Origin: a virus
Lineage: Duplodnaviria > Caudoviricetes
DNA: 62,640 bases
Virus record (IMG/VR): IMGVR_UViG_3300025652_000066
Location: 1 to 62,640 of that record
Direction: 5' to 3' (one strand)
Below the pieces are notes generated by a model. That model was not told the origin of the DNA, did no database searches, and saw nothing but the letters and a program-made list of their open reading frames with translations. The translations under genes were made by a program, and so were the position numbers. Position 1 is the stretch's first letter. Each line of letters opens with the position of its first letter. Positions 1,913 through 60,364 of this stretch are shown here, one piece after another.

Positions 1913-1987
1913 CGGCGAGTTATCGTCCTCCAACCTGCCGCCGGACAGGTGCTACACCTCCGGCACTTATTCTATAAGGAAATAGAC

Positions 1988-2140
1988 ATGAAAGATTTAA
2001 TCGAACGAGTAAAACTACTCGAGCACACTGTCACGCGCCTTGCCGCACTTCTTGAGAAAGCAACCCTAGATAAGCACGAGCTGGAAGCAACCCTAACACG
2101 CAAAGTATTAGAGGAGATGACCCGTGTACCTAGAACCTAA
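1988..2140 (+). CDS. small coiled-coil hypothetical protein
   Basis: AAGGA RBS inside hairpin TCTAT-AAGGAA-ATAGA before ATG 1988. Confidence 0.6.
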   Translation: MKDLIERVKLLEHTVTRLAALLEKATLDKHELEATLTRKVLEEMTRVPRT

Positions 2141-3200
2141 GCTACTCTACAGACGTAATGCGGCAGGTGGCGGTCAGATGTGGTCCATAGAAGTTCACGA
2201 TTGGGACCTCCACATTAAGCATGGAACCATTGATGACAATAATAATCACGGAAAACTACAGCTCCAAGTCGAAGAAGTCCCTGTCGGCAAGGCTGGGCGG
2301 ACCCGGGTTGAGCAAGTCCAATCCCGCGTCGCCTCCCGGACCAACAAACAGCGCGATAAAGGCTACGTTGATAGCCTATCGGATGCTGTTAAAGGGACCA
2401 ATGGAGCCGGCTTTATTAAGCCCATGCTTGCGACACCTTTTAAAGAAGTGCCTGAGACCGACTTAAACAAAGTATATGTTCAGATGAAATACGACGGCTT
2501 ACGCTGCCTAGTCACTAAGAAAAACGGAGTACTGCATGCGTATAGTCGTAACGGTAAACCAATCAACTCTGTTGACCATATACTCAGCGAGCTACAAGAC
2601 CGCCTCGATGAAGATGCTACGCTCGACGGTGAGCTGTATGCGCATGGGCTTACTCTACAGACTATCAATTCCCTCGTACGGGGCTCTACGAAAGATACTA
2701 CCCAGATAAGGTACATGGTCTATGACACTATCAGCGACGATCCGTACACGCTTAGGATGGCCAAAATCAGGTCCACACTTAAAGGATGCAGCGCTTCGTC
2801 CTTGGTTCCTACATCGACGTTATCGTCGGATCTCGATAAAGCATTACAGGGAGCACTAGATGACGGCTTCGAAGGACTCATTCTCCGTACGTTGGACACC
2901 GGATACGAAGCCGGCAAGCGTTCTAAAAGCCTCATTAAGGTTAAGCGATTCCTTGATGACGAGTTTATCGCGTTTGACATACACAGTTCCGTCGATGGCC
3001 ACGGGATTGTCTCGCTCTTTTCAAAAAATGGATCCCCTTTCACAGTTTCTGCACCAGGTACTGCGGCAGAAAGGGCGAAATGCCTTATACATAAAAACGA
3101 ATACATCGGTAAAGCATTAACCGTTAAATACGCCAATCTGACACCAGATGGCATCCCGTTCCACCCTGTTGCAGTCGCATGGAGAGATGCAGCAGATTAG
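2124..3200 (+). CDS. ATP-dependent DNA ligase with N-terminal WGR-like domain
   Basis: KPMLA, motif I KYDGLR, LDGELY, FEGLILR, LIKVK, OB-fold tail DGIPFHP. Confidence 0.9.
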   Translation: MYLEPKLLYRRNAAGGGQMWSIEVHDWDLHIKHGTIDDNNNHGKLQLQVEEVPVGKAGRTRVEQVQSRVASRTNKQRDKGYVDSLSDAVKGTNGAGFIKPMLATPFKEVPETDLNKVYVQMKYDGLRCLVTKKNGVLHAYSRNGKPINSVDHILSELQDRLDEDATLDGELYAHGLTLQTINSLVRGSTKDTTQIRYMVYDTISDDPYTLRMAKIRSTLKGCSASSLVPTSTLSSDLDKALQGALDDGFEGLILRTLDTGYEAGKRSKSLIKVKRFLDDEFIAFDIHSSVDGHGIVSLFSKNGSPFTVSAPGTAAERAKCLIHKNEYIGKALTVKYANLTPDGIPFHPVAVAWRDAAD

Positions 3201-3415
3201 TTTCATGCCGAGCTTAGCGTGCTCCTTGCCCTACCGTCGTCTAGGGTAACTAAGTTGACGACCTAATGAATCTAGCATTGTTGGTGTTTTAGAACTTTTG
3301 ATCCAGAGGTCTAGATAGGATCCCCCAGTAGCAGGTGGGTAACAGCTTCAGTACATGAGCGTTTTTCCAATCCTTTGCGTGGTATGTGCCGACTAGTCGC
3401 CGTTAGCGACCCTTT
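3201..3415 (+). ncRNA. candidate structured non-coding RNA / leader
   Basis: Nested pairings TTCAT/ATGAA, AGCTTAG/CTAAGTT, TTGCCCTA/TAGGGTAA, GATCC/GGATC, GTACAT/ATGTGC, GTCGC/GCGAC in an ORF-free gap. Confidence 0.35.
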
Positions 3416-3436
3416 ATTTACTTCAAGGAAGAAGTT

Positions 3437-3673
3437 ATGAAAACGATAGTCCACGTGAATCAACACGTCATCAAAACTAACAGAGCCCTTGGATCACAAG
3501 CGCCTGTACTCACATGCAAGACCTACAAATCAAACGCATACGCTAGCGAAGTCGCCATCTTAGACAAAGACGGTGAAGAAGTCGGACGCTTTATATACAG
3601 TCCTGACAAGCCCCTCTCTTGCGGCGCGCACGTATGGTTTGAAACACAGAACGAAATCAAAGTCCTCAGCTAG
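3437..3673 (+). CDS. conserved phage hypothetical protein
   Basis: MKTIVHVNQHVIK...YSPDKPLSCGAHVW is a recurrent phage small-protein pattern. Confidence 0.7.
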   Translation: MKTIVHVNQHVIKTNRALGSQAPVLTCKTYKSNAYASEVAILDKDGEEVGRFIYSPDKPLSCGAHVWFETQNEIKVLS

Positions 3674-4089
3674 TGGCTCAAAAGCCTGAGGCCGTGTACC
3701 GCAACTCGGTACATAAGCACCTCAACAAATCACACGTTTATTACGCGCCTATGGGAGGAAGCTATGTCGCTGGTATTCCGGACATGTACTACGAAGGATC
3801 TCTCGGCTGCTTGTGGGTGGAGTGGAAAAATTTTCAAGCCCTTCCATATACTATCGACCTTACCAAACTTTCGTCTAGATCAAAGTTATCTGCTCTCCAA
3901 CAACAGTGGCTCACTCGGGCTCACAAGCATTCGGTTAAGACGGCAGTTATCTGTGGCTCACCGCTTGGTGGTGTCATCTACGAAGGATTAAATTGGCAAC
4001 ACCCGCTAACTCAAGATGAGTTTTTAGCTAAATCATTACCAAGGAAGGAAATAGCACTATGGCTAACCAATCAAGTTTCAGACGAATAG
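3673..4089 (+). CDS. VRR-NUC-like / Holliday junction resolvase-type nuclease
   Basis: GIPD...WVEWK (PD-(D/E)xK) and LSALQQQWL motif. Confidence 0.75.
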   Translation: MAQKPEAVYRNSVHKHLNKSHVYYAPMGGSYVAGIPDMYYEGSLGCLWVEWKNFQALPYTIDLTKLSSRSKLSALQQQWLTRAHKHSVKTAVICGSPLGGVIYEGLNWQHPLTQDEFLAKSLPRKEIALWLTNQVSDE

Positions 4090-4289
4090 AATTCGGCAGC
4101 TACCAGCTTTCAAAAGGGGGCAGCTCAGAAATATACACCAAAGGTGTAGAACTCCATGTAACTGCGGACGCAATCCGTATACATCCTATAACGCTACACG
4201 CTAGCAAGGCGTCAAAATCATGCTACATTTCTATCCCCAACAACTACGAGGATATACAAAGCCTCATCAAGCTCCTGGAGGAATCATGA
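4059..4289 (+). CDS. hypothetical protein
   Basis: Fills the gap between nuclease and next gene; ATGA overlap at 4286-4289. Confidence 0.5.
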   Translation: MANQSSFRRIEFGSYQLSKGGSSEIYTKGVELHVTADAIRIHPITLHASKASKSCYISIPNNYEDIQSLIKLLEES

Positions 4290-4928: not shown

Positions 4929-5114
4929 ATGCTTGTGTTAACGCGCAAAGAAGGCGAAGTAATTTTAGTAGGAGATAATATAAGGATAACGTTAGTGAGG
5001 TCTACTAACGGACAAGCAAAGATAGGAATCGATGCTCCAGATACCGTAACAATACTCAGGGACGAGCTAACTCATGAATCTACTAAAGATAACGACGGTC
5101 GCGGAAACATTTGA
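4929..5114 (+). CDS. csrA: CsrA/RsmA family RNA-binding translational regulator (copy 1)
   Basis: [10 protein letters not shown]...IGIDAP....ILRDEL; L4, R6, R44 conserved. Confidence 0.92.
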   Translation: MLVLTRKEGEVILVGDNIRITLVRSTNGQAKIGIDAPDTVTILRDELTHESTKDNDGRGNI

Positions 5115-5391
5115 TTGCTCCCCGCGTCATATAAGAAGACTAATCAACAAGGGTGAGATCAAGGTGGTCTCACTCGGCCCTTCACCTAAGAGCGACAGGA
5201 TTGAGCGCCTCGAACTGGAGCGTTATATCGAAAGGAATCGAGCCACACGCGCAAACCCCTCATGCCACTCCAACTTCGCAACAAAACGTACTATGTCCGC
5301 GTCAGACGCAACGGCCAAGAAATTAAACGCGCTATTGGCAACAAAAAGCCAACGCAAAAAGGGCTTAGAGAATACGAGGACCTATTGCTAG
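5074..5391 (+). CDS. excisionase-like HTH DNA-binding protein
   Basis: LLKITTVAETFDCSPRHIRRLINKGEI...RI....LERYI; lies upstream of and overlaps the integrase. Confidence 0.75.
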   Translation: MNLLKITTVAETFDCSPRHIRRLINKGEIKVVSLGPSPKSDRIERLELERYIERNRATRANPSCHSNFATKRTMSASDATAKKLNALLATKSQRKKGLENTRTYC

Positions 5392-6242
5392 CCGAACTTA
5401 CTGCCTTACCTTCACTATCTTTTTCGCTTTTTGATGCTTTTACTAAGTATATAGACGGGCGGGCCACTGAAGTAGAACACTTCGACAAGCTTATGAGTAC
5501 TATTCGCACTATAATGCCTTACGTCCAGACGGCGGCTATCACCGATGTAGTCTCTGTTGGGGAAAGTATAATAGAAGCGGGGAAGAAGCGAGGCTTAGCT
5601 AACGCGACTATCAACAAACAACTTGGCGTACTTAGACGCGTAGCCAATTTGGCCTTTAAGTGGGGGTGGATAGATGTACAACTCGGCGCTAAGATTGATA
5701 AGCTCCCTGCCTCACTAGGTAGAGAAAACTTTCTATCTCTCGCTGAAGTCGACCAACTTGCATTAGCAGAACCTGTTATATCAGATACCGTCCTGTTTCT
5801 GACATTCACCGGTATGCGATGTGGGGAAGCGTTCAAGTTAGTAGCCGCCGATCGTATCGACGCCACCCATATACTAATACCTAAAGAAATAACCAAGACT
5901 AAATCACCTAGACTATTACCTATCCCCGCTAGAATCCAGCACGTTGCTATACCCTTAACACTATCTCGTAATGTACTGAGTAATAAATTTATCTTAGCCC
6001 GCGAAGCAATAGGTCGACCAGAAGTAACGCTTCATGATTTACGTCATACGTATGCGTCGTGGATGGCCAATGCTGGCGTGGAGTTTCAAACCTTGCAAAA
6101 GCTACTAGGCCACAAATCTCCTAGCATGACAAATCGCTACTCTCATCTGATGGATTCCACCTTTGAAGCCGCAGTTGCGAAGATGGAAACTTTTCACAAA
6201 GCGGGAACAAAAGCGGGAACAGATGAAGATGGATCGGCTTGA
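5262..6242 (+). CDS. int: tyrosine recombinase / phage integrase
   Basis: TGMRCGE (R), HDLRHTY (HxxR), LLGHKS (H), TNRYSH (Y). Confidence 0.95.
   Translation: MPLQLRNKTYYVRVRRNGQEIKRAIGNKKPTQKGLREYEDLLLAELTALPSLSFSLFDAFTKYIDGRATEVEHFDKLMSTIRTIMPYVQTAAITDVVSVGESIIEAGKKRGLANATINKQLGVLRRVANLAFKWGWIDVQLGAKIDKLPASLGRENFLSLAEVDQLALAEPVISDTVLFLTFTGMRCGEAFKLVAADRIDATHILIPKEITKTKSPRLLPIPARIQHVAIPLTLSRNVLSNKFILAREAIGRPEVTLHDLRHTYASWMANAGVEFQTLQKLLGHKSPSMTNRYSHLMDSTFEAAVAKMETFHKAGTKAGTDEDGSA
6197..6221 (+). repeat. putative integrase arm-type sites, left of core
   Basis: CAAAGCGGGAACAAAAGCGGGAACA, identical to 6370-6394. Confidence 0.75.
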
Positions 6243-6248: not shown

Positions 6249-6292
6249 TGCCCACGGCGCGATTCGAACGCGCGACCTTCCCCTTAGGAGGG
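6249..6292 (-). mobile_element. attP core: 3' half of tRNA-Arg(CCT)
   Basis: Minus strand CCCTCCTAAGGGGAAGGTCGCGCGTTCGAATCGCGCCGTGGGCA: CCT anticodon loop, T-arm GTTCGAATC, acceptor 3' strand; no 5' half; directly after int. Confidence 0.85.
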
Positions 6293-6394: not shown

Positions 6395-6413
6395 ACTGAT
6401 TAAGGATTCAAGG

Positions 6414-6653
6414 ATGAATAAAGGACAAACAAAGAAACACAGTATTTTAGAAGCGCTTACGCAAACGGCTATCGGATTCTCAGTGGGGTTAGCCTCGCAG
6501 CTTATCTTCTTTCCGATGTTTGATATTGATATATCGCTCCATCAGAATTTGCAGATCTCTGCTATATTCACAGTGATATCGATAGCTCGCGGGTATATAC
6601 TACGTCGGGGCTTTAACGCTTGGATGGTTAAGCAGATTAATAAACTAGACTAA
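6414..6653 (+). CDS. small two-TM phage membrane protein
   Basis: QTKKHSILEA...ISIARGYILRRGFN pattern; ATG 6414 lies inside hairpin ATTCA-AGGA-TGAAT. Confidence 0.7.
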   Translation: MNKGQTKKHSILEALTQTAIGFSVGLASQLIFFPMFDIDISLHQNLQISAIFTVISIARGYILRRGFNAWMVKQINKLD

Positions 6654-7954: not shown

Positions 7955-8344
7955 CTATGTAATCTCCATATTAAACTCGTCCACTCCTGTGGTCAGCCCT
8001 GCGAACTTTTGGATCGCTAGCCTAGAACTTGTTACTGCCCATTTATTATACGCTACACCGAGGTATAGTCCTAAACCTATGCAACCATGGAGATCGTCTT
8101 TAACATTAGCGACATGGAATAGAATATGCGTTCGGCCTGGCACATCCATCACTTCGAATGTATCCCCGAACTTGGGGCTTTGCACACGCTTGCACACGTA
8201 CTTCCCTGGAGGGATACAAGAAACGAAAGGCTTATTACATTCCCAGGGTCGTTCTACGGTATATAGTGTTCTACCCTCGATAGTGAACTCACCGAAAGTA
8301 CCGACTTCGCTATGCGAAGCAAATCGTTTTAATTGCACATCCAT
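7955..8344 (-). CDS. DUF5675-like protein, probable endolysin
   Basis: GTFG...TVERPW...SCIPPGKY...VPGRTHILFHVAN...GCIGLG; in lysis cluster. Confidence 0.75.
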   Translation of the reverse strand: MDVQLKRFASHSEVGTFGEFTIEGRTLYTVERPWECNKPFVSCIPPGKYVCKRVQSPKFGDTFEVMDVPGRTHILFHVANVKDDLHGCIGLGLYLGVAYNKWAVTSSRLAIQKFAGLTTGVDEFNMEIT

Positions 8345-8411
8345 GTGCTTTCTCCTGTTTTAAGTAACGATTACTGCTACCCACAATACACCAATACCAC
8401 CATCACGCCTT

Positions 8412-18204: not shown

Positions 18205-18578
18205 TATCTGGTTATCTCGGTATCTATTTTGACATTGCCTTTAAGCAGGCGGGTAACCACACCAGCAGCAGAAACCATTTCGAGATCGTAGTTACCAGCA
18301 GTCCACGAGATAGCAGCGGTGTCAGTAGCAGAAATGAACAGGCGAACTTCGCCAGGGGCTGTACCAAGAATCAAACCACCGTTTTCTGTAGTTAGTTCTA
18401 GTAAGGTAGATGCAGCATCTATTGAGTCACGGATGTGTAGTCGAGCTGTGTAGTTTTCAAGTCCTGCAACAGGTGAGTTAGACTCATCACTCCATGTAAG
18501 AGGCACGTCAAACGTAGCACCCTGTTCGATGACTACATTAAGTTTGCCCGCTACCGCTTTGATTGTATCTATCGCCAT
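18204..18578 (-). CDS. Ig-like fibre attachment/adaptor protein
   Basis: IEQGATF...YTAR...YDLEM....V.RLLKG pattern. Confidence 0.65.
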   Translation of the reverse strand: MAIDTIKAVAGKLNVVIEQGATFDVPLTWSDESNSPVAGLENYTARLHIRDSIDAASTLLELTTENGGLILGTAPGEVRLFISATDTAAISWTAGNYDLEMVSAAGVVTRLLKGNVKIDTEITR

Positions 18579-19092
18579 CCTTGGCTCCAGTATGCTGTAC
18601 TATTTTATTGATGTGACTCAACCATTGATCTAGAGAAGCCACGCTTTTCATCTTGTTACACGTGCCGCAAGCTGGTGTTATATTACCTGCTCGGTATGCG
18701 TCGCTGCTGTCGATCCGGTCTATACCTATACCATCTATTTTATCATTACAGTAGGCACAATGCGAGTTCCACAGCTTGACAAAGTCCCCAATGGTCAGAT
18801 CCCACTTTATATCTCGACTGCGCGCACTAGACCTGTACTCGGCAAAGCGGATCGTTATGTTACTAGAGCGTTCAGCCTTAGAGCAGCACGCCGTGCATAT
18901 TTCATATTTAGTAGACTTTGGCATTACTAGAGCGCATTTCTTACAGCGAACTAAATGCGGAGACTTAATATTCAGCCGCCTAGCCCGCACACTATTTTCC
19001 GTACGATGTGGGAGTACTAGCTCAGCTATGTCGGTATTAGAATAGAAGCGGTGTTCTCGAATTAACTCTTCTTCCCACTCCTGCCACTCCAC
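18538..19092 (-). CDS. HNH-type endonuclease with N-terminal DNA-binding region
   Basis: CAYC...GIDRIDS..AY..GN..PAC..CNKMK. Confidence 0.75.
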   Translation of the reverse strand: MEWQEWEEELIREHRFYSNTDIAELVLPHRTENSVRARRLNIKSPHLVRCKKCALVMPKSTKYEICTACCSKAERSSNITIRFAEYRSSARSRDIKWDLTIGDFVKLWNSHCAYCNDKIDGIGIDRIDSSDAYRAGNITPACGTCNKMKSVASLDQWLSHINKIVQHTGAKDGDRYNQSGSGQT

Positions 19093-26342: not shown

Positions 26343-26408
26343 TTGAGACCGTCCTTGGTTTCTGTGTGCTTTGGTGGCTACCCACTAAGGGGCAGCCTTT
26401 AGAGTTAG

Positions 26409-30359: not shown

Positions 30360-30389
30360 CCTTGGCTCCTAGTGTTTCATATTCTCTAA

Positions 30390-35742: not shown

Positions 35743-36942
35743 TTATATCCCTATATATTTATTATTTACTGTCCCACTATCCGTAGTGGAGACTAGAAAC
35801 CTGTTATACCCGTCTTGCTCTATAAAAGCGGTGACACATCTGCCACCAGGTGCCACGCTCGCACGCGTTTGCGTAAGATTTTCAAACTCAGGTACTCTGC
35901 ATACCCCTCGATTTGTCCAGAAATAGAGCACGCCATTTGGATCTTGAGATGCTTGATTCCCTTCTGGTACGCCGTAATCCGCGAGTTTCACTAACCCGTT
36001 GCTCATGGAGTACGAGAGTATTGTCTTATCTGTGGCGATTAATACGCCGCCTGTATACGCCTCTAGCATCCTGACCTGTCCAGACACTGCTTCGTATGAT
36101 CCGAAGAGGTCAAACAACCCTAGCCAAAAAGGCTCAGAGTGGAAGATATAAGTGGCGTCTTGAGGCTGTGAATAATCTGCAACATACATCCGCCCGTCTT
36201 GGTAGGTGAGCTTAGTGGCTGACATCGGTACTGGGTAACGTTGGTGTTGCTCCTTAGCTAGCGGAACGATTAAGTTCTCTAATGCGCCATCAAGGAGAAA
36301 CGATATATTGGTTGTAGTGACCGCTTTGTATAGCGTCTCACCATTAGTAGCCGAGATATAGATAACCGTCTCGTGGTCAGCTAGTTGGGGTACTTCGATC
36401 TGAAGTCCTGAGTTAGCTGATGTATTTACAACGACAGGTGTGGGCGCAGCGCCTTCTTCTCCGAAACTATTACGGTGTGTGCACGTGACTTGGTATTGAC
36501 CTGGCGGTATTGAGCCTGCGGCTAACGTAATACTAGGTTGCATAGCGGTTGCTACGCCCCACGGTTTAAATACGTCCGAGTCTATTACGCCTGTCTTAGG
36601 ACCAAGGATGTAGATCTTATTTCCAACTTCTTCCCATTCATATACGCCTTCTGGAAAACCAGTAGCTAGAACCGTCGAGGTGAAGTCAGCTTCAATCGCG
36701 ATAAGCGATCCGTCGTCGATGGCGTACATATGTTTCTGGTCGTCTGTCGAGAACATCCCGTAGACATCCGATAGCGATAAGCGGGAGGTATATCCGTCGC
36801 GCCTATGGATAGAATCCTCGTTGTCTATATTTATATTGTCGGCAACAAGTAGTGCCCCTTTCGGAGCTTGTAGCGGGTCGAGCGTGTTTACTAAACCCAG
36901 AAACGAGTTTACTTTGAGTGGGTCTTGTTTAGGTAGGGTCAT
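35743..36942 (-). CDS. putative tail nozzle/tubular protein
   Basis: F.GLVN...ADNINID....RRDGY; follows the adaptor gene. Confidence 0.55.
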   Translation of the reverse strand: MTLPKQDPLKVNSFLGLVNTLDPLQAPKGALLVADNINIDNEDSIHRRDGYTSRLSLSDVYGMFSTDDQKHMYAIDDGSLIAIEADFTSTVLATGFPEGVYEWEEVGNKIYILGPKTGVIDSDVFKPWGVATAMQPSITLAAGSIPPGQYQVTCTHRNSFGEEGAAPTPVVVNTSANSGLQIEVPQLADHETVIYISATNGETLYKAVTTTNISFLLDGALENLIVPLAKEQHQRYPVPMSATKLTYQDGRMYVADYSQPQDATYIFHSEPFWLGLFDLFGSYEAVSGQVRMLEAYTGGVLIATDKTILSYSMSNGLVKLADYGVPEGNQASQDPNGVLYFWTNRGVCRVPEFENLTQTRASVAPGGRCVTAFIEQDGYNRFLVSTTDSGTVNNKYIGI

Positions 36943-39655: not shown

Positions 39656-39658
39656 GTC

Positions 39659-39854
39659 GAATATTCCTTTATTCGTCGTATTAAAATCCCAAAACTATGG
39701 GAATGATTGGTCAAACGTTCTGAACCTATCGCGTCAGATAACTTTCGCTTAATACGGTTATTTATCGAGGGTGGCGATCCTCGCTCTATCTATCGCTATA
39801 GAGGTCGAAGTATGGATCTAGCGCATCCTTGCGCATTTGATACATCCTTGTATC
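39659..39854 (-). promoter_or_regulatory. MCP 5' leader with three CsrA-type AGGA hairpins
   Basis: GATACA-AGGA-TGTATC (39839-39854), GCGCA-AGGA-TGCGC (39821-39834), GAATA-AAGGAA-TATTC over the RBS (39659-39674). Confidence 0.75.
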
Positions 39855-40749: not shown

Positions 40750-40760
40750 TGTAAATCCTC

Positions 40761-42908
40761 CTAGGATTCTTTAGTTTTAGTTTTGGCTTTTTCTTTATCA
40801 GCTCGCTCTGCTTGTTCTCGCTTCGCTTCGCCGTCTTGGATGGTAGCCAGCATCTTTATCTTTTGCTGGCCGACTGCTTTTTCTCGTTCTAGCTGAAGCT
40901 GCATGGCTTGTTTTTCTCTCGCCATCCACAACTCTGCATCTTGCTTCTCACGTGCCATTTCCAACTCCGCTGCTATCTTAGCGTGTTGTAATCTTAGCTC
41001 GCCTTGCCCGTCATCTTGCTGGTCTTTTTGCACTTCGGCCATTTCTTTACGGGCTCTTACTGCGTTGAGCGCTGCAGTAGATGATTTAACCTGGGTATCC
41101 GCTTCTTTGTCTTTATTTTCAAGTTCGAGTTTCTGCATCTCAAGCTGCTGCATTTTTTGCTCGGCTTCAGTTGCTTCACCGCCGCCTTGTAGTTCTTTAA
41201 TGCGTGCTGCTATTTCTGTTTTACGAGACAGATGACTATTCTCAATTAACACATCGTCAGGAATAGCGATGCCTAGTTGACGTAGCTCAAGTGCTTCTTG
41301 GAACTGCGTAGTCTCGAAGTCATCTCTTGCAGGAACGTTCGTAACAACAATGCCGTATTCACCTAGCGTTAGATCATTAATTAGCTGACCTTCTGGTGTC
41401 ATCTGGTTTACAGCCATCTGCTCAGTCTGTGCTGTTAAGTCACGACCGACGACTTGGATAACACGTTCTTCTGTGTAATAAGTCTGAACTAAATTTAAGA
41501 TCCGCTTAGCCAACATGTGGCGTGTTTTGGTTAGGTTATCTAGTGGTTTCGCTAAGTTGACAGCGCCAGCAGATTGTTTTGCTTTAATCGCTTTTGCTGC
41601 TACGTCGGCTCTATCCATGCCGCGCTGTGAATCAGAGATACCTGATATTTCTTTAATGAACTCATCTGACTTATACGTTACACGATCGAGGCCAGTTGGC
41701 ACTTGGTTCGGGCTGATCTTCTCTAGATCGTTTACATCTGTTAGCTCAAACACAACACCTGTTTCAGCGCCGCGTTCTTCCAGATCTTCTACATCCATGT
41801 TCTGTAGTGAGCCGGCTTTAACTTTGTAACCACTGTTTGCTGTGGTGTTGATAATGTGTAGTTCTTGACTTGACGCTTTGTTGAGCTGGTCTTGTGGAGA
41901 AAGGAGATTCTCGACTAAGCCAATCGTCCGTCCGTTACGAAGGTATGGGAAGTAAGGCACGATAGTAAAGTAGGTGTAAGGACTCCACTCGTCGAACAGC
42001 ACAATGTCATCAGCTGTTACCGTCCAGCGGATAGATTCCGCTAAGCGCTTAACCATTGACAAGCCTGCTTTGTTAGCAACATCTTGGCGTTTTGCACTGT
42101 CCCAGTTATCTGGAACCATACGCATGTCGCCTGCTTCGATGTCTACGAACCACCACGCATTTCGGATCTTACGGTATTGTCTTTCGATAATACGCACTTT
42201 ACGGCGTGTATTATCATTCTCTCTGTCACCTTCTGGAACTTGAAACGAGCCAGCAAACGTACCGTGGTAGCGTTCGGCTGAGTCGTACCCAAACTGGAAC
42301 TCGCTAGCCACTTTGGTCTTTAGGGTATCGGCGTGCTTTTTACTATAGAGTAGCTCGATGTCATTTATCGTTAGCCACTTAGTGATGAACACTTCTTTCC
42401 AGGTATCGGGATCGTACTCGTCTGCATCAGGATCTATAACGACATTACGGGGGTTTATACGCTTAAGGCGTACCTCGCCTTGCATGTGATCGTCAAAAGC
42501 AGCACGTACATCGAAGAAGCCACGACTTGTTATGAACCCATCGTTGGAGACTTCTGATTCAATATCATCGAGCTTGTTACTGTTGGTGATCTGAATGTAA
42601 ACTTTAGTGAGCGCGTCGGCGACTTCTTGTGTGCCATCTTTCAAGGGGCGAAAGGATACGTCTGCTCTATTACGCAGTTGCTCGCCCATAACCACAGCCA
42701 TAGTAGACATGATTTTATTTATGGTGAGTACTGGCTTGCCTTGCGATTCTAGTTTCTGGCGGACAGCTTCGTCCCACTGCTCTCCAGCAAAATACTTATC
42801 GCACAGGTCAGCCTTCTTGACGAAGTCAAGGTGGCCGTTGTCTCTCGCGTATGAGTATCGTTCGAACTGTTCGCTAGCTATTTCATAATCGGTCGGCATC
42901 CTTGCCAT
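40761..42908 (-). CDS. portal protein (N4/P22-like podovirus type)
   Basis: YFAGEQW...GKPVLTINKI, IDPDA.EYD, SPQDQLNK, C-terminal helical barrel. Confidence 0.9.
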   Translation of the reverse strand: MARMPTDYEIASEQFERYSYARDNGHLDFVKKADLCDKYFAGEQWDEAVRQKLESQGKPVLTINKIMSTMAVVMGEQLRNRADVSFRPLKDGTQEVADALTKVYIQITNSNKLDDIESEVSNDGFITSRGFFDVRAAFDDHMQGEVRLKRINPRNVVIDPDADEYDPDTWKEVFITKWLTINDIELLYSKKHADTLKTKVASEFQFGYDSAERYHGTFAGSFQVPEGDRENDNTRRKVRIIERQYRKIRNAWWFVDIEAGDMRMVPDNWDSAKRQDVANKAGLSMVKRLAESIRWTVTADDIVLFDEWSPYTYFTIVPYFPYLRNGRTIGLVENLLSPQDQLNKASSQELHIINTTANSGYKVKAGSLQNMDVEDLEERGAETGVVFELTDVNDLEKISPNQVPTGLDRVTYKSDEFIKEISGISDSQRGMDRADVAAKAIKAKQSAGAVNLAKPLDNLTKTRHMLAKRILNLVQTYYTEERVIQVVGRDLTAQTEQMAVNQMTPEGQLINDLTLGEYGIVVTNVPARDDFETTQFQEALELRQLGIAIPDDVLIENSHLSRKTEIAARIKELQGGGEATEAEQKMQQLEMQKLELENKDKEADTQVKSSTAALNAVRARKEMAEVQKDQQDDGQGELRLQHAKIAAELEMAREKQDAELWMAREKQAMQLQLEREKAVGQQKIKMLATIQDGEAKREQAERADKEKAKTKTKES

Positions 42909-42914
42909 CCTTGG
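42895..42914 (-). promoter_or_regulatory. two tandem CsrA-type hairpins across the portal start codon
   Basis: CCA-AGGA-TGG then GGCA-AGGA-TGCC. Confidence 0.7.
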
Positions 42915-49150: not shown

Positions 49151-49153
49151 GGC

Positions 49154-49169
49154 TACTCATCCTTGAGTA
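49154..49169 (-). promoter_or_regulatory. CsrA-type hairpin on terS RBS
   Basis: TACTCA-AGGA-TGAGTA, 3 nt before ATG. Confidence 0.7.
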
Positions 49170-49247
49170 ATTGACTTAGAGCATAGTATAGCAGCTTTGT
49201 AAAGCCTGTCCATGTAACGACGTGTGGACGACCATGTAGCGGCGTTG

Positions 49248-49661: not shown

Positions 49662-49695
49662 CTGCTACTTCCTTATAGCTTGCTAAGTCGGATTC

Positions 49696-54152: not shown

Positions 54153-54179
54153 AACACACAACCATATTAAAGGAATAAT

Positions 54180-54374
54180 ATGTCAAGCAATATGTCAACA
54201 AGGACGAGCACTAGCGCTACACAAGGCTACGGACATGCAACGAATTACGAGTCATCAGGGTTAGTCTTTAGAACTATCTGCCCTGCATGCAAGACAGCGA
54301 AGAAACCGGGCACAAGCCACCCGCGCTGCTCACCGATACTAAAACGAATGCGAGCCGACGGAGAGCTAGGATGA
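54180..54374 (+). CDS. small Zn-finger-like protein
   Basis: CPAC...HPRC; start inside hairpin CATATTA-AAGGAA-TAATATG. Confidence 0.6.
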   Translation: MSSNMSTRTSTSATQGYGHATNYESSGLVFRTICPACKTAKKPGTSHPRCSPILKRMRADGELG

Positions 54375-54647: not shown

Positions 54648-54827
54648 ATGCTAGTATTAACTCGAAAAGAAGGCGAAACCATCCATATTGGTAGCGATAT
54701 TGTGGTAAATGTATTACAATTACGCGGTAATCAAGTCAAGATAGGTATCGAAGCACCCAAGATAGTCGACGTGCACCGAGGCGAGATTTATGCGGCTATA
54801 AAGGCACAACTCCTAAACACACACTAA
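54648..54827 (+). CDS. csrA: CsrA/RsmA family regulator (copy 2; not in ORF track)
   Basis: [60 protein letters not shown]4, R6, H43-R44, EIY conserved; AGGAG RBS. Confidence 0.93.
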
Positions 54828-54849
54828 CACCAACATGCAAGGATGCGTA

Positions 54850-55380
54850 ATGGTAAAAACACCCTCTATCAATTCTCTAGCTCAGGCTAACGGCATCTCA
54901 AGACAAGTCTTGGCATACCGCCGAAAACTGAATCCTGACGCACCGATGAACGAGCTTGTTTACCCACCACGCAGTAGAAGCGTACGTAGCTTTAACTTCA
55001 TTGGGGACAAAGAGCAGTACACTGTCACTGAGCTGGCCAGAGCGTATAACGTGCCAAGACGCACACTTGACACACGCATTACTCGCAACCCCGATGCACT
55101 CATAGAAGACTTACTCTATCCACCTTGTGCAACACCGCACCGAGTCCTCAAGCGGTATATAGCTAAAGACCTACAACCTGAGGTAGTCAAGCCTAAAAAG
55201 CCAAGACGTAAGCCTAACCCACGACCCGATCCGCCACCCTTCTCAGAAGACTACGAGACACTCAACAGGATTCGATCGTATAGAAAAGCAGGAATGAGCG
55301 AAGACGAAATCATGTTCAAACTCAAAATGATAAGCCGCTGGGACAAAACACCCTCGCCTTATGCCGACTACTTATTCTAA
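54850..55380 (+). CDS. DNA-binding protein with two HTH-like repeats
   Basis: SINSLAQANGISRQVL..R...NPDA...EL.YPP repeated as TVTELARAYNVPRRTL..R...NPDA...DL.YPP. Confidence 0.65.
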   Translation: MVKTPSINSLAQANGISRQVLAYRRKLNPDAPMNELVYPPRSRSVRSFNFIGDKEQYTVTELARAYNVPRRTLDTRITRNPDALIEDLLYPPCATPHRVLKRYIAKDLQPEVVKPKKPRRKPNPRPDPPPFSEDYETLNRIRSYRKAGMSEDEIMFKLKMISRWDKTPSPYADYLF

Positions 55381-55391
55381 GGAGAATACAA

Positions 55392-55699: not shown

Positions 55700-55897
55700 A
55701 ACATAGTTCACAGACCGCACAGACCGCACTAAGCCAAACATGCTAGAGGTGTGAACTAAAGCTTACACTGTTTTTGGAGCAGCACTTAACGTATAACCCC
55801 CAAAATAAAACCTAGTATAAGCATACAGAGTGTGTTTAGCTAAATCCCTCAAACCTCTGGCCCAGGATGGTCAGTTTACTCGTCAAGGAAGACCTTT

Positions 55898-58835: not shown

Positions 58836-58864
58836 TGGTAAAATTGAGCTCCGCTCAAAACTAG

Positions 58865-58880
58865 TTTGCAAGGATGCAAA
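58865..58880 (+). promoter_or_regulatory. CsrA-type hairpin on exonuclease RBS
   Basis: TTTGCA-AGGA-TGCAAA, 4 nt before ATG 58885. Confidence 0.7.
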
Positions 58881-58884
58881 AAAC

Positions 58885-59619
58885 ATGGCTACACAAATCA
58901 ATGCCGGTTCCTTCTCACGCATGTCTGTCTATGCAGAATGCCCTCAACGTGCAAAATTACAGTATGTAGATAAGATCAAGGAGATGGAGCGACCTGCTCC
59001 ACCTCCTGGTCAAGAGCATGCTAACGATAGAGGATCACGAGTTCATGACGAAGCAGAAAAATATGTCAAAGACGAACGCGACGACCTTGTCATGGAATTG
59101 CTCAATTTCAAAGACGAACTGGAACACCTTAAATCCCTTTATACAGATGGAGTGGTCGAAACCGAACAACTATGGACGTTCGACGATACTTGGACGCCGT
59201 CTGATCCAGATGATTATCCCAACATCTGGCTACGAGTCATCTGCGACGGGTTGGTATTTCTCGATGATGAAACAGCTGTGGTTATTGATTATAAGACAGG
59301 CAAAAGAGTCAGAAACGAAGTAAAGCACGCACAACAAGGGCAGCTCTACATGCTGTCCACCTTCATTCGTTATCCAAAGTTACAAACAATCACCGTTGAG
59401 TTCTGGTATTTAGACCAGGATGAAATGTATCAAATGACCTATACCCGAGAACAAGGTATGCGGTTCTTCAAATTATGGAACGACAAGATGTTAAAAATGA
59501 CATCTGACGTGACCTTTGAAGCTAAACCTTCTACGTATACCTGTAGATTCTGCCCTTTCCAAGATGGCAAGAACAAGTGGCTCACCGGTACAGGTGACTG
59601 CACCAGAAACCCGACGTGA
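58885..59619 (+). CDS. PD-(D/E)XK exonuclease, RecB/Cas4-like
   Basis: SFSR...CP, RGS.VH, D...IDYKTGK, Q.QLY, C.FCPF...C. Confidence 0.85.
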   Translation: MATQINAGSFSRMSVYAECPQRAKLQYVDKIKEMERPAPPPGQEHANDRGSRVHDEAEKYVKDERDDLVMELLNFKDELEHLKSLYTDGVVETEQLWTFDDTWTPSDPDDYPNIWLRVICDGLVFLDDETAVVIDYKTGKRVRNEVKHAQQGQLYMLSTFIRYPKLQTITVEFWYLDQDEMYQMTYTREQGMRFFKLWNDKMLKMTSDVTFEAKPSTYTCRFCPFQDGKNKWLTGTGDCTRNPT

Positions 59620-59644
59620 GTTAGACAGCACACGTCACCTTTGA

Positions 59645-59676
59645 CCCACTTGCGCTACGTAGGTGGGTATTTTTTC
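59645..59676 (+). terminator. intrinsic terminator
   Basis: ACCCACTTGCG-CTA-CGTAGGTGGGT-ATTTTTT. Confidence 0.75.
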
Positions 59677-59697
59677 GCATAAAATATAGGAAGTATT

Positions 59698-60012
59698 ATG
59701 CTTACCGAAAATGAAGAACACGCCCTAGCACAACACAAAGCCGACGTACTACGCCGCTTCACAACCACTATGGCCTCATACTCTGATGACGGTGAAAAAC
59801 CAGAAGAGAACACCGAAAGTGTTTACGCCATTGATGGATTTTCCGATACCTACTTTTCTATCGACGCAGCCGTGAAAGAAGCCAGCGACAGTGCCGAAGC
59901 ACACGTGGCGCATACAGGTCAATCACACACCTTCACAGTATGGCGCAAGGTAAAAACAGTCACCGCAATACCTAAATCGCTCGCAGATATAAAGGTGGAA
60001 TCCCATGGCTAA
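59698..60012 (+). CDS. hypothetical protein
   Basis: AGGA RBS within AATAT-AGGAA-GTATT. Confidence 0.6.
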   Translation: MLTENEEHALAQHKADVLRRFTTTMASYSDDGEKPEENTESVYAIDGFSDTYFSIDAAVKEASDSAEAHVAHTGQSHTFTVWRKVKTVTAIPKSLADIKVESHG

Positions 60013-60310
60013 AAATGCAGCAAAACAAGTTTTACAAGCGAAGATGAAACGCCTCTTGGAAGCTGAATCGCCCCGTGAACTAGCTCATACATTAGGCGTC
60101 CATGAGCGCACGATTATCAACTGGACACAAGGGCGCGTGCTACCACAGCAACACTCACAACGACGTATAGACGAAGCGCTAATAAAGAGCTTCAACAAAG
60201 AGCGAACGTTCTTCGCATTACATGCACCCGCACTTCTCTTATCACTCTTAGGTCTAGCCATCGTGCTAGGCGCTTATTTACATAACAACACAACACTACA
60301 ACTGTTTTAG
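60005..60310 (+). CDS. HTH (XRE/Cro-like) protein with C-terminal TM helix
   Basis: SPRELAHTLGVHERTIINWTQGRVLP; hydrophobic tail. Confidence 0.65.
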   Translation: MAKNAAKQVLQAKMKRLLEAESPRELAHTLGVHERTIINWTQGRVLPQQHSQRRIDEALIKSFNKERTFFALHAPALLLSLLGLAIVLGAYLHNNTTLQLF

Positions 60311-60364
60311 TACTAGGTGGGGGCAATCTGCTCCCACTCTTTTAATAAATAAAGGAAGTTTATT

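What the first reader, a model, noticed from the sequence alone, without database searches (positions are those of the whole stretch)
1971..60363. Apparent phage-encoded CsrA/RsmA regulon: two csrA genes plus genome-wide AGGA hairpins on translation starts
Seen: two csrA ORFs (4929-5114, 54648-54827). Stem-loops with AGGA in the loop lie on the RBS, start codon or leader of many genes. CAAGGATG-core hairpins: 6406-6419(+), 18574-18585(-), 30355-30366(-), 39821-39834(-), 39839-39854(-), 42895-42906(-), 42905-42914(-), 49154-49169(-), 54835-54848(+), 58865-58880(+). Related AAGGAA/AAGGAC/CAGGAT-loop hairpins: 1971-1986, 3420-3435, ~26348-26359(-), 39659-39674(-), ~49665-49680(-), 54163-54182, 55857-55874, 55882-55893, ~59683-59697, ~60344-60364. 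Stems differ in sequence yet still pair, which points to selection on structure. By manual, non-exhaustive count, CAAGGATG occurs at least 12 times (about 2 expected for an 8-mer on both strands at uniform composition), 10 of them at starts or leaders. Established: CsrA/RsmA binds GGA in hairpin loops (SELEX consensus RUACARGGAUGU) and usually blocks ribosome loading. Inference: TerS, portal, MCP, virion proteins, primase and exonuclease are under a translational switch run by phage and/or host CsrA. This could gate lytic development on host Csr/Gac status. Phage csrA homologues are known, but I do not know of a description of a matched genome-wide target set.
Basis: partly seen in the sequence, partly recalled or inferred. 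Interest (0 to 1): 0.93.

Follow-up and report, generated by a model that had tools for sequence, protein, structure and literature searches.

The report
Phage csrA genes plus GGA-hairpin operators
A temperate phage, probably of the methylotroph Methylophaga, carries two CsrA RNA-binding protein genes, and many of its own gene starts sit in small hairpins that look like textbook CsrA binding sites, so it may control its own translation through this regulator.

Summary
Both csrA ORFs are real (Pfam PF02599, E 3e-20 and 1e-24). CAAGGATG occurs 13 times against 1.44 expected. Eleven copies are on the sense strand and 10 lie at leaders or starts.

- **Hexaloops:** AAGGAA and AAGGAT are the two commonest hexaloops closed by at least 4 Watson-Crick pairs in the whole window.
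- **Gene starts:** 22 of 80 GGA triplets within -30..+12 of gene starts sit in such loops. Flank-swapped controls give 4.1±2.0 (0 of 2000 reach 22). Inside genes the rate is 22 of 639.
- **Other phages:** four other csrA-carrying phages show no such excess. KPP25, which has no csrA, is borderline. Only the closest relatives share the trait, and they show compensatory stem changes.

The phage is temperate. It has an integrase, and a 44-nt attP core identical to tRNA-Arg(CCU) of two Methylophaga genomes that themselves encode CsrA.

The best reading (about 0.55) is that these are translational operators bound by phage and/or host CsrA. No binding has been shown. I could not test whether csrA and the hairpins occur together in close relatives. 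The main rival is a set of CsrA-independent hairpins that display the Shine-Dalgarno sequence (SD) or stabilise mRNA 5' ends. Phage csrA genes are already known. I found no published description of a matching cis target set.

The parts
4929..5114 (+). csrA1, 61 aa. The more divergent copy. It lies directly upstream of the integrase gene.
   Evidence: Pfam PF02599, E 2.8e-20. Aligned to solved CsrA/RsmA chains it keeps L2, L4, R6 and R44, but has V42I, H43L and I47L.
54648..54827 (+). csrA2, 59 aa. The canonical copy, in the early/replication arm.
   Evidence: Pfam PF02599, E 9.7e-25. In a 54-residue alignment with E. coli CsrA (1y00) it keeps L2, L4, R6, V40, V42, H43, R44, E46 and I47.
39839..39854 (-). 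Class I hairpin GATAC[AAGGAT]GTATC. First of two tandem sites at the 5' end of the ~200-nt MCP leader.
   Evidence: A promoter-like site (TTGACT, 18-nt spacer, TG, TACCAT) ends at 39871. RNA contigs from two metatranscriptome runs stop at 39846 and 39841.
39821..39834 (-). Class I hairpin GCGC[AAGGAT]GCGC. Second tandem site; its GGA lies 19 nt after the first one.
   Evidence: It is covered by RNA contigs that run on into the MCP coding sequence.
39658..39675 (-). CGAATA[AAGGAA]TATTCG on the MCP Shine-Dalgarno sequence (ATG at 39655).
   Evidence: Identical in L025 and L026. Replaced by ATATA[GGAA]TATAT in L024.
42894..42914 (-). Two overlapping class I sites, CC[AAGGAT]GG and GGC[AAGGAT]GCC, over the portal start (ATG at 42908 or 42899).
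   Evidence: The portal is Pfam P22_portal, E 4e-87. L025 has GGC[ACGGAT]GCC at the same place.
49153..49170 (-). TTACTC[AAGGAT]GAGTAG, with 9 nt between the GGA and the ATG (49150) of the 174-aa gene in the TerS position.
   Evidence: An extended -10 promoter-like site (TGGACA, 16-nt spacer, TG, TATACT) ends at 49185.
49664..49679 (-). GCTAT[AAGGAA]GTAGC (contains G-U pairs) on the SD of the endonuclease VII/HNH-like gene (ATG at 49661).
   Evidence: PHROG 1035.
30355..30366 (-). GCC[AAGGAT]GGC. The start codon (30359) sits in the loop and closing pair, and a GGAG lies 9 nt upstream.
   Evidence: The gene encodes a 634-aa protein of PHROG 10969.
18574..18585 (-). GCC[AAGGAT]GGC. Same 18-nt context as the 30355 site, with the start codon at 18578 inside the motif.
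   Evidence: The gene belongs to PHROG 1084.
26348..26359 (-). ACC[AAGGAC]GGT on the SD of the 2415-aa virion protein gene. A second AAGGAC follows 22 nt downstream, in TGGCG[CAAGGACTA]CGTCA.
   Evidence: The stem is weak (3 bp).
40753..40769 (-). GAATCC[TAGGA]GGATTT on the SD of the 282-aa gene between the portal and MCP genes.
   Evidence: L025 and L026 have AATTCC[TAGGA]GGAATT, a compensatory A-T to T-A change.
35744..35757 (-). TATA[TAGGGA]TATA on the SD of the 153-aa gene (ATG at 35740).
   Evidence: Orthologous starts carry AACCC[ACGGAG]GGGTT in L025 and L026 and AAACCC[CGGA]GGGTTT in L027.
34871..34884 (-). AGTC[ACAGGA]GACT on the SD of the 150-aa gene (ATG at 34867).
   Evidence: L026 has AGTC[ACGGAG]GACT.
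6406..6419 (+). ATTC[AAGGAT]GAAT. Its ATG (6414) is the likely start of the DUF7220 gene, and two further GGA triplets lie 10 and 13 nt away.
   Evidence: The DUF7220 domain begins at residue 36 of the longer ORF.
54835..54848 (+). ATGC[AAGGAT]GCGT, 7 nt after the csrA2 stop, on the SD of the HTH-protein gene (likely ATG at 54850).
58865..58880 (+). TTTGC[AAGGAT]GCAAA, with 10 nt between the GGA and the ATG (58885) of the PD-(D/E)XK exonuclease gene.
   Evidence: Pfam PDDEXK_1.
55857..55893 (+). A pair of hairpins, CTGGCC[CAGGAT]GGTCAG and GTC[AAGGAA]GAC, with GGAs about 21 nt apart, ahead of the primase-like gene (ATG at 55898).
   Evidence: PHROGs 24712 and 1156.
54163..54182 (+). CATATTA[AAGGAA]TAATATG. 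The start codon of a 64-aa ORF (54180) forms part of the 3' stem.
3420..3435 (+). ACTTC[AAGGAA]GAAGT, directly before the ATG at 3437 (78 aa, PHROG 8676).
1971..1986 (+). TCTAT[AAGGAA]ATAGA, before an in-frame ATG at 1988 of a small ORF upstream of the DNA ligase gene.
5228..5241 (+). TCGA[AAGGAA]TCGA, between csrA1 and the integrase gene. 25 nt separate its GGA from the integrase ATG, too far to act as an SD.
60343..60365 (+). TAATAAAT[AAAGGAA]GTTTATTA. Its 3' stem runs into the ATG (60365) of the ATPase gene.
   Evidence: PHROG 1297.
59683..59697 (+). AATAT[AGGAA]GTATT, directly before the ATG at 59698 (104 aa).
55373..55388 (+). TATTC[TAAGGA]GAATA on the SD of a 47-aa ORF (ATG at 55392).
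672..689 (+). CGAGAT[AAGGAG]ATTTCG (one G-U pair) on the SD of the gene starting at ATG 691 (PHROG 13900).
8335..8348 (-). GCAC[ATGGAT]GTGC. The start codon (8344) lies in the loop.
5262..6242 (+). Tyrosine integrase gene. It marks the phage as temperate.
   Evidence: PHROG 1, E 1e-43.
6249..6292 (-). attP core. Its 44 nt are identical to the 3' part of tRNA-Arg(CCU) in two Methylophaga genomes.

Best explanation
The window is a temperate phage. It is a distant relative of Pseudomonas phage KPP25 and its host is probably Methylophaga.

About 20-25 of its translation-initiation regions and 5' leaders carry a short stem (3-8 bp) that presents GGA in a 4-7 nt loop. Ten of these carry the exact core C-AAGGAU-G.

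I read them as cis-acting operators for a CsrA-family dimer: phage CsrA2, phage CsrA1, host CsrA, or some combination. The bound protein would cover the Shine-Dalgarno sequence and/or the start codon and so set how efficiently ribosomes load.

Paired sites 19-22 nt apart occur in the MCP leader, ahead of the primase-like gene, and at the giant virion protein gene. That spacing would let one dimer bridge two sites.

**Shown:** the csrA genes, the hairpins, their enrichment, their position on starts, stem covariation in close relatives, and transcription of the MCP leader together with the MCP gene.

**Inferred:** that CsrA is the binder, that the effect is on translation, and the direction of that effect. 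I guess repression, as for most known CsrA targets.
For: - **Regulators present.** There are two intact csrA genes. CsrA2 keeps the residues that I recall as RNA-contacting. Both putative host genomes encode a canonical CsrA.
- **Motif excess.** CAAGGATG occurs 13 times against 1.44 expected, and 10 copies are at leaders or starts. Of sense-strand AAGGA pentamers, 8 of 21 in start or intergenic regions are CAAGGATG, against 3 of 57 inside genes (Fisher p = 8e-4). The phage has about 10 times the density of the host genomes.
- **Hairpin excess.** AAGGAA and AAGGAT top the ranking of hexaloops with at least 4 Watson-Crick pairs: 6 of 20 and 5 of 26 sense-strand occurrences, where chance is about 0.4%. 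At gene starts, 22 of 80 GGA triplets are in such loops, against 4.1±2.0 for flank-swap controls.
- **Sites that cannot be SDs.** The two tandem sites lie 170-190 nt upstream of the MCP start. Site 5228-5241 has 25 nt between its GGA and the integrase ATG. Site 55857-55874 has its GGA 33 nt before the primase ATG.
- **Selection on structure.** Compensatory stem changes are seen at orthologous starts in L024-L027. L025 and L026 also have two tandem GGA-loop hairpins about 20 nt apart in the MCP leader, with different sequences.
- **Transcribed.** Metatranscriptome contigs identical to the window cover the MCP gene and its leader continuously up to 39841-39846.
- **Weak directional hint.** Among all Rfam families, the leader's lowest-E match (E 0.37) is a 17-nt local match to a GGA hairpin of the Rsm sponge RsmV. 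That is not significant.
- **Wider family.** In Bcep22, DC1 and JC1 a csrA gene sits directly upstream of the MCP gene; in GP4 one small gene lies between them. The MCP leader pairs a GGA-containing 5' arm with the stretch just upstream of the start codon in Bcep22, JC1 and GP4, less clearly in DC1.
Against: - **No excess in other csrA phages.** F116 has 3 of 62, Vibrio D65 0 of 52, PSTCR8lys 2 of 48 and Bcep22 3 of 23. All are at the flank-swap expectation. Carrying csrA therefore does not generally come with such a site set.
- **Co-occurrence untested.** The relatives that share the SD-in-loop hairpins (L024-L026) are 8-9 kb fragments of unknown csrA status. The long relatives examined (12 records of 26.7-71 kb) lack csrA, but they also lack the hairpins and are distant.
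- **AAGGA is itself an SD.** Many hairpins could simply display the SD. The base after GGA does not differ between hairpin and non-hairpin SDs (G in 6 of 15 against 20 of 41, p = 0.76).
- **Weak stems.** Several stems are only 3-4 bp or all A-T, with predicted folding energies of 0 to -5.5 kcal/mol.
- **Loose count unremarkable.** The genome-wide GGA-in-loop count is within the range of other loci.
- **Awkward logic.** Repression of both early and late genes by one protein has no obvious regulatory rationale.
- **No experiment.** The consensus sequences I compare with are recalled from memory, not taken from a call.
Confidence: 0.55

Rival explanations
1. The hairpins act on their own as RNA structures, with no CsrA involved. 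They might hold the Shine-Dalgarno GGA single-stranded in a loop to tune ribosome loading. As stem-loops near the 5' end of short leaders, they might instead protect the mRNA from 5'-end-dependent decay. On this reading the two csrA genes are ordinary accessory ('moron') genes aimed at host mRNAs.
For: - Most sites coincide with the SD at normal spacing: 5-10 nt lie between the GGA and the ATG.
- Relatives down to about 70% protein identity present the SD in a loop using quite different loop sequences (CGGA, ACGGAG, GGAA). Only the SD-like GGA is constant.
- Several hairpins sit 8-10 nt after predicted promoters with extended -10 elements, where a 5' stem-loop would stabilise the RNA.
- Four other csrA-carrying phages lack such hairpins.
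- The literature I read treats phage CsrA as a manipulator of the host (passages).
Against: - It does not explain why an 8-nt sequence, C-AAGGAU-G, recurs 10 times with a fixed closing pair and fixed loop flanks.
- It does not explain well-formed sites with no start codon at SD distance: 5228-5241, 55857-55874 and the second tandem site at 39821-39834.
- In four class I sites the AUG itself lies in the loop and closing pair, with a separate SD upstream. That is not SD display.
Confidence: 0.3
2. The hairpins are operators or processing sites for a different phage- or host-encoded factor. Candidates are another translational repressor acting as T4 RegA does, or an endoribonuclease that cuts GGA-containing ribosome-binding sites as T4 RegB cuts GGAG. 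Their resemblance to CsrA sites would then be coincidental.
For: - The repeated 8-mer implies recognition by a sequence-specific factor but does not identify it.
- Many ORFs of the early arm have no assigned function.
Against: - I recognised no candidate RNA-binding protein or RNase among the 30 proteins scanned, whereas two CsrA genes are present.
- The motif matches the recalled CsrA/RsmE consensus in sequence, loop size and closing pair.
Confidence: 0.1
3. The pattern is an effect of composition or chance: AGGA-rich ribosome-binding sites in AT-rich intergenic DNA that happen to be flanked by short palindromes.
For: - The loose genome-wide count of GGA in small loops is unremarkable, at 7.5% against 4.3-13% in other loci.
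- Several stems are short or consist only of A-T pairs.
Against: - Flank-swap controls drawn from the same start regions never reach the observed count (0 of 2000).
- Of 100 dinucleotide shuffles, 0 reach 13 copies of CAAGGATG.
- 20 comparison sets scored with the same script sit at the flank-swap expectation, apart from the closest relatives (L024-L026) and a borderline KPP25.
- Compensatory changes are seen in relatives.
Confidence: 0.03

Closest known systems
CsrA/RsmA-RsmE translational repression of bacterial mRNAs (glgC, cstA, pgaA, hcnA). SELEX consensus RUACARGGAUGU and RsmE consensus (A/U)CANGGANG(U/A), both recalled from memory.
   Same: GGA is presented in the loop of a short hairpin that overlaps the SD or start codon. 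The CA-N-GGA-N-G core is met exactly by 10 leader or start sites. Some targets have two sites roughly 20 nt apart. The protein family is encoded in the same genome.
   Different: The targets here are a phage's own early and late genes, not host metabolic or virulence genes. The regulator may be phage-encoded. No binding has been shown. No sponge sRNA was found.
Phage-encoded CsrA/RsmA homologues: F116, the phi297 'RsmM' type, Bcep22/DC1/JC1 and PTXU04.
   Same: A small csrA gene is carried by a temperate or podovirus-type phage. F116, like this phage, has two copies. The MCP of this phage is distantly related to those of the Bcep22 group (about 33% identity).
   Different: The published view in the passages I read is host manipulation (for example CRISPR-Cas repression) or an accessory gene of unknown role. 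The 2025 CRISPRi-ART paper states that the role in the phage life cycle 'has not been previously tested' before its own knock-down, which reduced plaque size. None of these passages describes cis sites on phage genes. F116 and Bcep22 show no excess of hairpins at gene starts in my test.
CsrA paralogues on other mobile elements: plasmid RsmQ of Pseudomonas fluorescens and CsrT of Legionella ICEs.
   Same: A mobile element brings its own CsrA-family regulator. CsrT is reported to act on traits of its own element (recalled from memory; mentioned in passing).
   Different: Those elements are plasmids or ICEs. For RsmQ I saw only the search listing and abstract, which describe global control of host behaviour. 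I know of no element-wide set of consensus hairpins described for them, but I did not read those papers in full.
T4 RegA regulon and the coat-protein operator hairpins of RNA phages (recalled from memory).
   Same: The logic is the same: a phage-encoded RNA-binding protein represses many phage mRNAs, or one key mRNA, by occupying the translation-initiation region.
   Different: The protein families are unrelated, and RegA sites are not GGA hairpins. The resemblance is functional only, with no shared family membership.

Membership tests
CsrA/RsmA protein family (PF02599), for ORFs 4929-5114 and 54648-54827 | Profile match above the curated cut-off over nearly the whole ~53-position domain, in a protein of about 60 aa. 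| tested here: met
   72.5 and 86.7 bits against a cut-off of 27, covering profile positions 1-50 and 1-52 of 53. Confirmed.
CsrA/RsmA protein family (PF02599) | Conservation of the RNA-contacting residues of strands beta1 and beta5 (L2, L4, R6, V40, V42, R44, I47; the roles of these residues are recalled from mutagenesis literature). | tested here: met
   CsrA2 keeps all of them, with R7K. CsrA1 keeps L2, L4, R6, V40 and R44, with V42I, H43L and I47L. Both were aligned to solved chains 1y00 and 1vpz and to host CsrA.
CsrA/RsmA protein family (PF02599) | Interlocked homodimer fold with two RNA-binding surfaces. | not tested
   I made no structure or complex prediction. The only support is sequence similarity to solved dimers.
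CsrA binding site on mRNA | GGA in the loop of a short hairpin. | tested here: met
   22 of 80 start-region GGAs have at least 4 Watson-Crick pairs closing a 4-7 nt loop, against 4.1 expected. 11 AAGGAW hexaloops have at least 4 pairs.
CsrA binding site on mRNA | Match to the high-affinity consensus core CANGGANG (recalled). | tested here: met
   Ten sense-strand leader or start sites read CAAGGATG exactly. The other hairpins (AAGGAA, TAGGA and similar loops) meet only the A(N)GGA part.
CsrA binding site on mRNA | Overlap with the SD or start codon, or a second site within bridging distance (10-63 nt, recalled). | tested here: met
   SD or AUG overlap is seen at most sites. Pairs 19-22 nt apart occur at 39821-39854, 55857-55893 and 26322-26359. 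I did not test pair spacing statistically.
CsrA binding site on mRNA | Specific binding by a CsrA protein, with a regulatory effect. | not testable with these tools
   This needs EMSA, CLIP and reporter assays.
Csr/Rsm sponge sRNA (CsrB, RsmY/Z/V type), considered for the MCP leader | A discrete non-coding RNA with many (usually at least 5) GGA hairpins and its own terminator, or a match to a curated family. | tested here: not met
   The leader has only 2-3 GGA hairpins. There is no Rfam match at gathering score in the window. The only related hit is a 17-nt local match to RsmV at E 0.37. RNA contigs run from the leader into the MCP gene.
Temperate phage integrating into a tRNA gene | A tyrosine integrase, plus an attP core identical to the 3' part of a host tRNA, plus flanking arm repeats. 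| tested here: met
   Integrase: PHROG 1, E 1e-43. attP core: 44 nt identical to tRNA-Arg(CCU) of two Methylophaga genomes. Arm repeats: four copies of AAGCGGGAACA flank the core.

The most novel reading that the evidence does not exclude
The phage carries a self-contained Csr circuit with three parts:
- two diverged CsrA paralogues, one beside the integrase and possibly expressed in the lysogen, the other in the early lytic arm;
- twenty or more GGA-hairpin operators on its own early and late mRNAs;
- a highly transcribed MCP leader whose two tandem consensus sites act as a built-in decoy.

When late transcription fires, the decoy would titrate CsrA away, releasing translation of virion genes on a timer and tying phage development to the host's Csr state.
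Probability: 0.2. Interest if true: 0.85.

Novelty: new variant of a known kind. Interest (0 to 1): 0.66.

Why it matters
Many phages, plasmids and ICEs carry csrA, but what the gene does for a phage is open. One 2025 paper says the role had not been tested before its own knock-down, which reduced plaque size.

A phage whose own ribosome-binding sites look like consensus CsrA sites gives a concrete and cheap hypothesis to test. On this hypothesis phage CsrA is a regulator of phage translation, analogous to T4 RegA, in addition to or instead of a tool against the host.

It would also be a compact natural set of about 20 graded CsrA-type operators. That is useful for studying how site sequence, stem length and site pairing set affinity.

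Tried and rejected
**Leads that went nowhere or gave negative results**

1. **Loose genome-wide count.** Counting any GGA in any 4-8 nt loop does not distinguish the window. I replaced it with tests restricted to gene starts and to hexaloops.
2. **GGAG avoidance.** I expected hairpin loops to avoid GGAG. They do not: G follows GGA in 6 of 15 hairpin SDs against 20 of 41 non-hairpin SDs (p = 0.76).
3. **Closer relatives with long contigs.**
   - The primase protein found nothing in viral contigs or metagenome contigs.
   - CsrA2 found only homologues of 69% identity or less.
   - So I could not test whether csrA and the hairpins occur together in the lineage.
4. **Reverse search for tandem CAAGGATG in viral contigs.**
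   - A rough estimate from memory of the collection's size suggests that most are chance matches.
   - tblastn with the CsrA proteins found no csrA in the 80 stored loci.
5. **Host sponge.** No cluster of three CANGGANG motifs exists in the two Methylophaga genomes, which are incomplete assemblies.
6. **Rfam.** Nothing reached gathering score.
7. **Promoter scans.** Overall counts equal the shuffle expectation. I use only the individual sites lying in intergenic DNA just upstream of hairpins, and only as inference.
8. **Read layout.**
   - Regions of the window without RNA contigs are not evidence of silence.
   - All four runs laid are assembled contigs, and DNA carry-over in the RNA libraries cannot be excluded.
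   - The shared stop of two RNA contigs at 39841-39846 is only a weak hint of a 5' end.
9. **KPP25.** It lacks csrA over its whole record. Its borderline 6 of 54 comes mostly from doubtful small ORFs.
    - The Bcep22 paper PMC3187461 is not held.
The supplementary phage-csrA lists of PMC7366521 and PMC8450108 may include this or related contigs.

Full report
**What the window is.** The window is a complete IMG/VR virus record of 62,640 bp, classed as linear and estimated 74% complete by CheckV.
- Genes run on the + strand from 1 to about 6650 and from 49741 to 62504. They run on the - strand from 49661 down to 6834.
- The - arm holds these genes:
  - large terminase (46669-48666);
  - P22-type portal (40761-42908);
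  - major capsid protein, MCP (38546-39655);
  - a 2415-aa virion protein (19095-26342).
- The + arm holds these genes:
  - a primase-like protein (55898-58378);
  - a PD-(D/E)XK exonuclease (58885-59619);
  - an ATPase (60365-61339);
  - an ATP-dependent DNA ligase (2124-3200);
  - a tyrosine integrase (5262-6242).
- The nearest named phages are Pseudomonas phages KPP25 and phiR18 (56% MCP identity). More distant are the Bcep22-type Burkholderia and GP4-type Ralstonia podoviruses (about 30-33%).

**Lifestyle and host.**
- Next to the integrase gene, window 6249-6292 is identical over 44 nt to the 3' part of tRNA-Arg(CCU). A 35-nt exact-match scan of one genome for each of 185,579 species found it in only two, both Methylophaga assemblies.
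- Four copies of AAGCGGGAACA flank this core. I read them as integrase arm sites.
- The phage is therefore temperate, and its host is probably Methylophaga or a close relative.
- Both Methylophaga genomes encode a canonical CsrA.

**The csrA genes.**
- CsrA2 (54648-54827) aligns with E. coli CsrA over 54 residues. It keeps the residues that I recall as RNA-contacting (L2, L4, R6, V40, V42, H43, R44, E46, I47).
- CsrA1 (4929-5114) is more divergent (V42I, H43L, I47L) but keeps R44.
- Neither is a recent copy of the host gene.

**The motif and the hairpins.**
- CAAGGATG occurs 13 times against 1.44 expected. Eleven copies are on the transcribed strand. Ten are at leaders or starts, one is inside the terminase gene, and two are antisense.
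- In every leader or start copy, the bases on either side of C-AAGGAT-G pair for a further 1-5 bp, and the stem sequences all differ.
- I ranked all hexamer loops closed by at least 4 Watson-Crick pairs. AAGGAA (6 of 20 sense-strand occurrences) and AAGGAT (5 of 26) are the top two in the window, where chance is about 0.4% per occurrence.
- The same measure, counting both strands, gives 11 of 64 in the window. It gives 6 of 537 in 21 other csrA-bearing viral loci and 4 of 337 in 32 MCP relatives.
  - Of 80 GGA triplets within -30..+12 of the 81 called gene starts, 22 lie in a 4-7 nt loop closed by at least 4 Watson-Crick pairs.
  - I re-paired left and right flanks among the same sites, which keeps SD composition and position. 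The expectation is then 4.1±2.0, and 0 of 2000 trials reach 22.
  - Inside genes the rate is 22 of 639.
- A looser genome-wide count is not unusual.
- Predicted hairpin stabilities are modest, from 0 to -5.5 kcal/mol.

**Position on the messages.**
- At 18578, 30359, 42908 and 6414, the AUG inside the motif is the start codon or a likely start codon, and a separate SD lies upstream.
- At 49150, 58885, 54850, 39655, 3437, 49661, 60365 and others, the looped GGA is itself at SD distance from the start.
- Some well-formed sites cannot be SDs:
  - the two tandem sites at the 5' end of the ~200-nt MCP leader (GGAs 19 nt apart);
  - the site between csrA1 and the integrase gene (25 nt between its GGA and the ATG);
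  - the first of the two sites ahead of the primase gene.
- Promoter-like sites lie just upstream of two leaders: TTGACT, 18-nt spacer, TG, TACCAT ending at 39871, and TGGACA, 16-nt spacer, TG, TATACT ending at 49185. Promoter-like sites as a whole are no more frequent than in shuffles.
- Three metatranscriptome runs hold contigs identical to the window. These cover the MCP gene, the gene after it and the leader continuously. Two of them stop at 39846 and 39841, inside the first hairpin.
- That fits a transcript starting shortly upstream. It is only a weak hint, because these are assembled contigs.

**Comparison with other phages.** I ran the same gene-start test with the same crude gene caller on other genomes. 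The window gives 20 of 81 in this version, with 0 of 500 flank-swap trials reaching it.
- Four other csrA-carrying phages are at chance: F116 (two csrA copies) 3 of 62, Vibrio phage D65 0 of 52, Providencia phage PSTCR8lys 2 of 48, and Bcep22 3 of 23.
- KPP25 has no csrA anywhere in its record. It gives 6 of 54, mostly at doubtful ORFs.
- Only the closest relatives by MCP share the trait:
  - L024 gives 3 of 8, with 30 of 500 trials reaching it.
  - L025 gives 2 of 10, with 9 of 500.
  - L026 gives 4 of 11, with 0 of 500.
- Relatives with MCP identity of about 83% or lower are at chance.
- Orthologous starts show the structure being kept while the sequence changes:
  - MCP: CGAATA[AAGGAA]TATTCG against ATATA[GGAA]TATAT.
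  - The gene before MCP: GAATCC[TAGGA]GGATTT against AATTCC[TAGGA]GGAATT.
  - The 153-aa gene: TATA[TAGGGA]TATA against AACCC[ACGGAG]GGGTT and AAACCC[CGGA]GGGTTT.
  - Portal: GGC[AAGGAT]GCC against GGC[ACGGAT]GCC, through a synonymous Arg codon.
- L025 and L026 also carry two GGA-loop hairpins about 20 nt apart at the start of the MCP leader, with sequences unlike the window's. L024 has none there.
- These relatives are 7.5-9 kb fragments, so whether they carry csrA is unknown. Searches for longer close relatives failed.

**A family-level clue.**
- In Bcep22, DC1 and JC1, a csrA gene lies immediately upstream of the MCP gene. In GP4 one small gene lies between them.
- In the predicted fold of the Bcep22, JC1 and GP4 MCP leaders, a 5' arm containing CAGGA(U/G)G pairs with the stretch just upstream of the start codon. 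In DC1 the pairing is less clear.
- F116 also has a csrA copy inside its structural module.
- The association of csrA with capsid gene expression may therefore be old in this broad group. I did not test this statistically.

**Interpretation.** The hairpins are real, selected and positioned to affect ribosome loading.
- Several points make CsrA-family binding the best explanation. I put it at about 0.55.
  - The 8-nt core recurs with a fixed C-G closing pair.
  - That core matches the recalled CsrA and RsmE consensus.
  - Some sites cannot be SDs.
  - Some sites are paired at about 20 nt.
  - The phage has two csrA genes and the host has CsrA.
- Against it:
  - Other csrA phages show no such sites.
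  - AAGGA is itself an SD.
  - The lineage-wide SD-in-loop hairpins use varied loops.
  - Co-occurrence with csrA could not be tested.
- The main rival (about 0.3) is a set of CsrA-independent hairpins that display the SD or stabilise 5' ends. On that reading csrA acts only on the host.
- Which CsrA binds, and whether it represses or activates, is open.

**Literature.**
- Phage csrA genes have been catalogued (passages of PMC7366521 and PMC8450108). They are interpreted there as host manipulation, for example repression of CRISPR-Cas.
- In JC1, CsrA is called a moron gene, possibly virion-associated (passages of PMC9144972).
- The CRISPRi-ART paper reports that knocking down a phage csrA homologue reduces plaque size. 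It states that the role had not been tested before (passages of PMC11879866).
- Four full-text searches turned up no description of CsrA-type sites on a phage's own genes. I did not see supplementary files or papers in subscription journals.

**Verdict.** I rate it a new variant of a known kind, with interest 0.66.

Noticed in passing
window 6199-6394: The attP region has a 44-nt core (6249-6292) identical to the 3' part of tRNA-Arg(CCU) of two Methylophaga genomes. Two tandem copies of AAGCGGGAACA lie on each side (6199-6221 and 6372-6394) and are probably integrase arm-type sites. ARAGORN finds no complete tRNA in the window.
   Followed up: yes
window 39687-39790 (- strand); L024-L029 upstream of the MCP gene: The MCP leader holds a conserved structured core shared by relatives down to about 70% MCP identity. 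One hairpin, CGAGG-ATCGCCAC-CCTCG, shows compensatory changes: AGAGG..CCTCT in L027 and CAAGG..CCTTG in L029. It is followed by an invariant AAATAA. A terminator-like hairpin with a T run lies at 39687-39702, just before the MCP ribosome-binding site. No Rfam family matches. It might be an attenuator or antitermination element for late transcription.
   Followed up: partly
Bcep22 31170-31475 (L267); DC1 (L269); JC1 (L270); GP4 (L271): In Bcep22, DC1 and JC1 the csrA gene sits directly upstream of the major capsid gene; in GP4 one small gene lies between them. The predicted fold of the capsid leader in Bcep22, JC1 and GP4 pairs a GGA-containing 5' arm (for example GCAGGATGTGC in Bcep22) with the bases between the SD and the AUG (GCACATCC-ATG). 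In DC1 the pairing is less clear. A CsrA-responsive switch could look like this.
   Followed up: partly
L130 10488-10734; L132 832-1887: Two unrelated viral contigs found with the tandem-motif scan carry arrays of the same hairpin type. L130 has three near-identical AGGGC[AAGGA(T/C)]GCCCT units and 7 copies of CAAGGATG in 11.7 kb. L132 has 6 copies in 8.4 kb, three of them in hairpins. These could be sponge-like RNAs or coding repeats. tblastn found no csrA in the stored parts.
   Followed up: no
window 49247-49765: A 90-99% identical relative in DNA run X10 joins 49246 to 49766 with 48 other letters in between. It therefore lacks the endonuclease VII/HNH-like gene and the divergent promoter region found here. 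That gene looks like a mobile insertion.
   Followed up: no
window 50490-50515 and 52381-52406: Two near-identical 11-bp-stem terminator-like hairpins (AGCC(T/C)(C/T)A(A/G)CAC-TTCG-GTGTT(G/A)GGGCT followed by a T run) lie in the early arm. A third strong one is at 59644-59668.
   Followed up: no
G020:C42:19665-19672 (putative host genome): One host copy of CAAGGATG lies about 105 nt upstream of the host's own csrA gene, on the same strand. That is where an autoregulatory CsrA site would be expected.
   Followed up: no
F116 record, 16229-16600 and 33363-33569 (L063, L064): Pseudomonas phage F116 also has two csrA-like genes. One is in the early region, where the record annotates it as a transcriptional regulator. 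The other is inside the structural module.
   Followed up: partly
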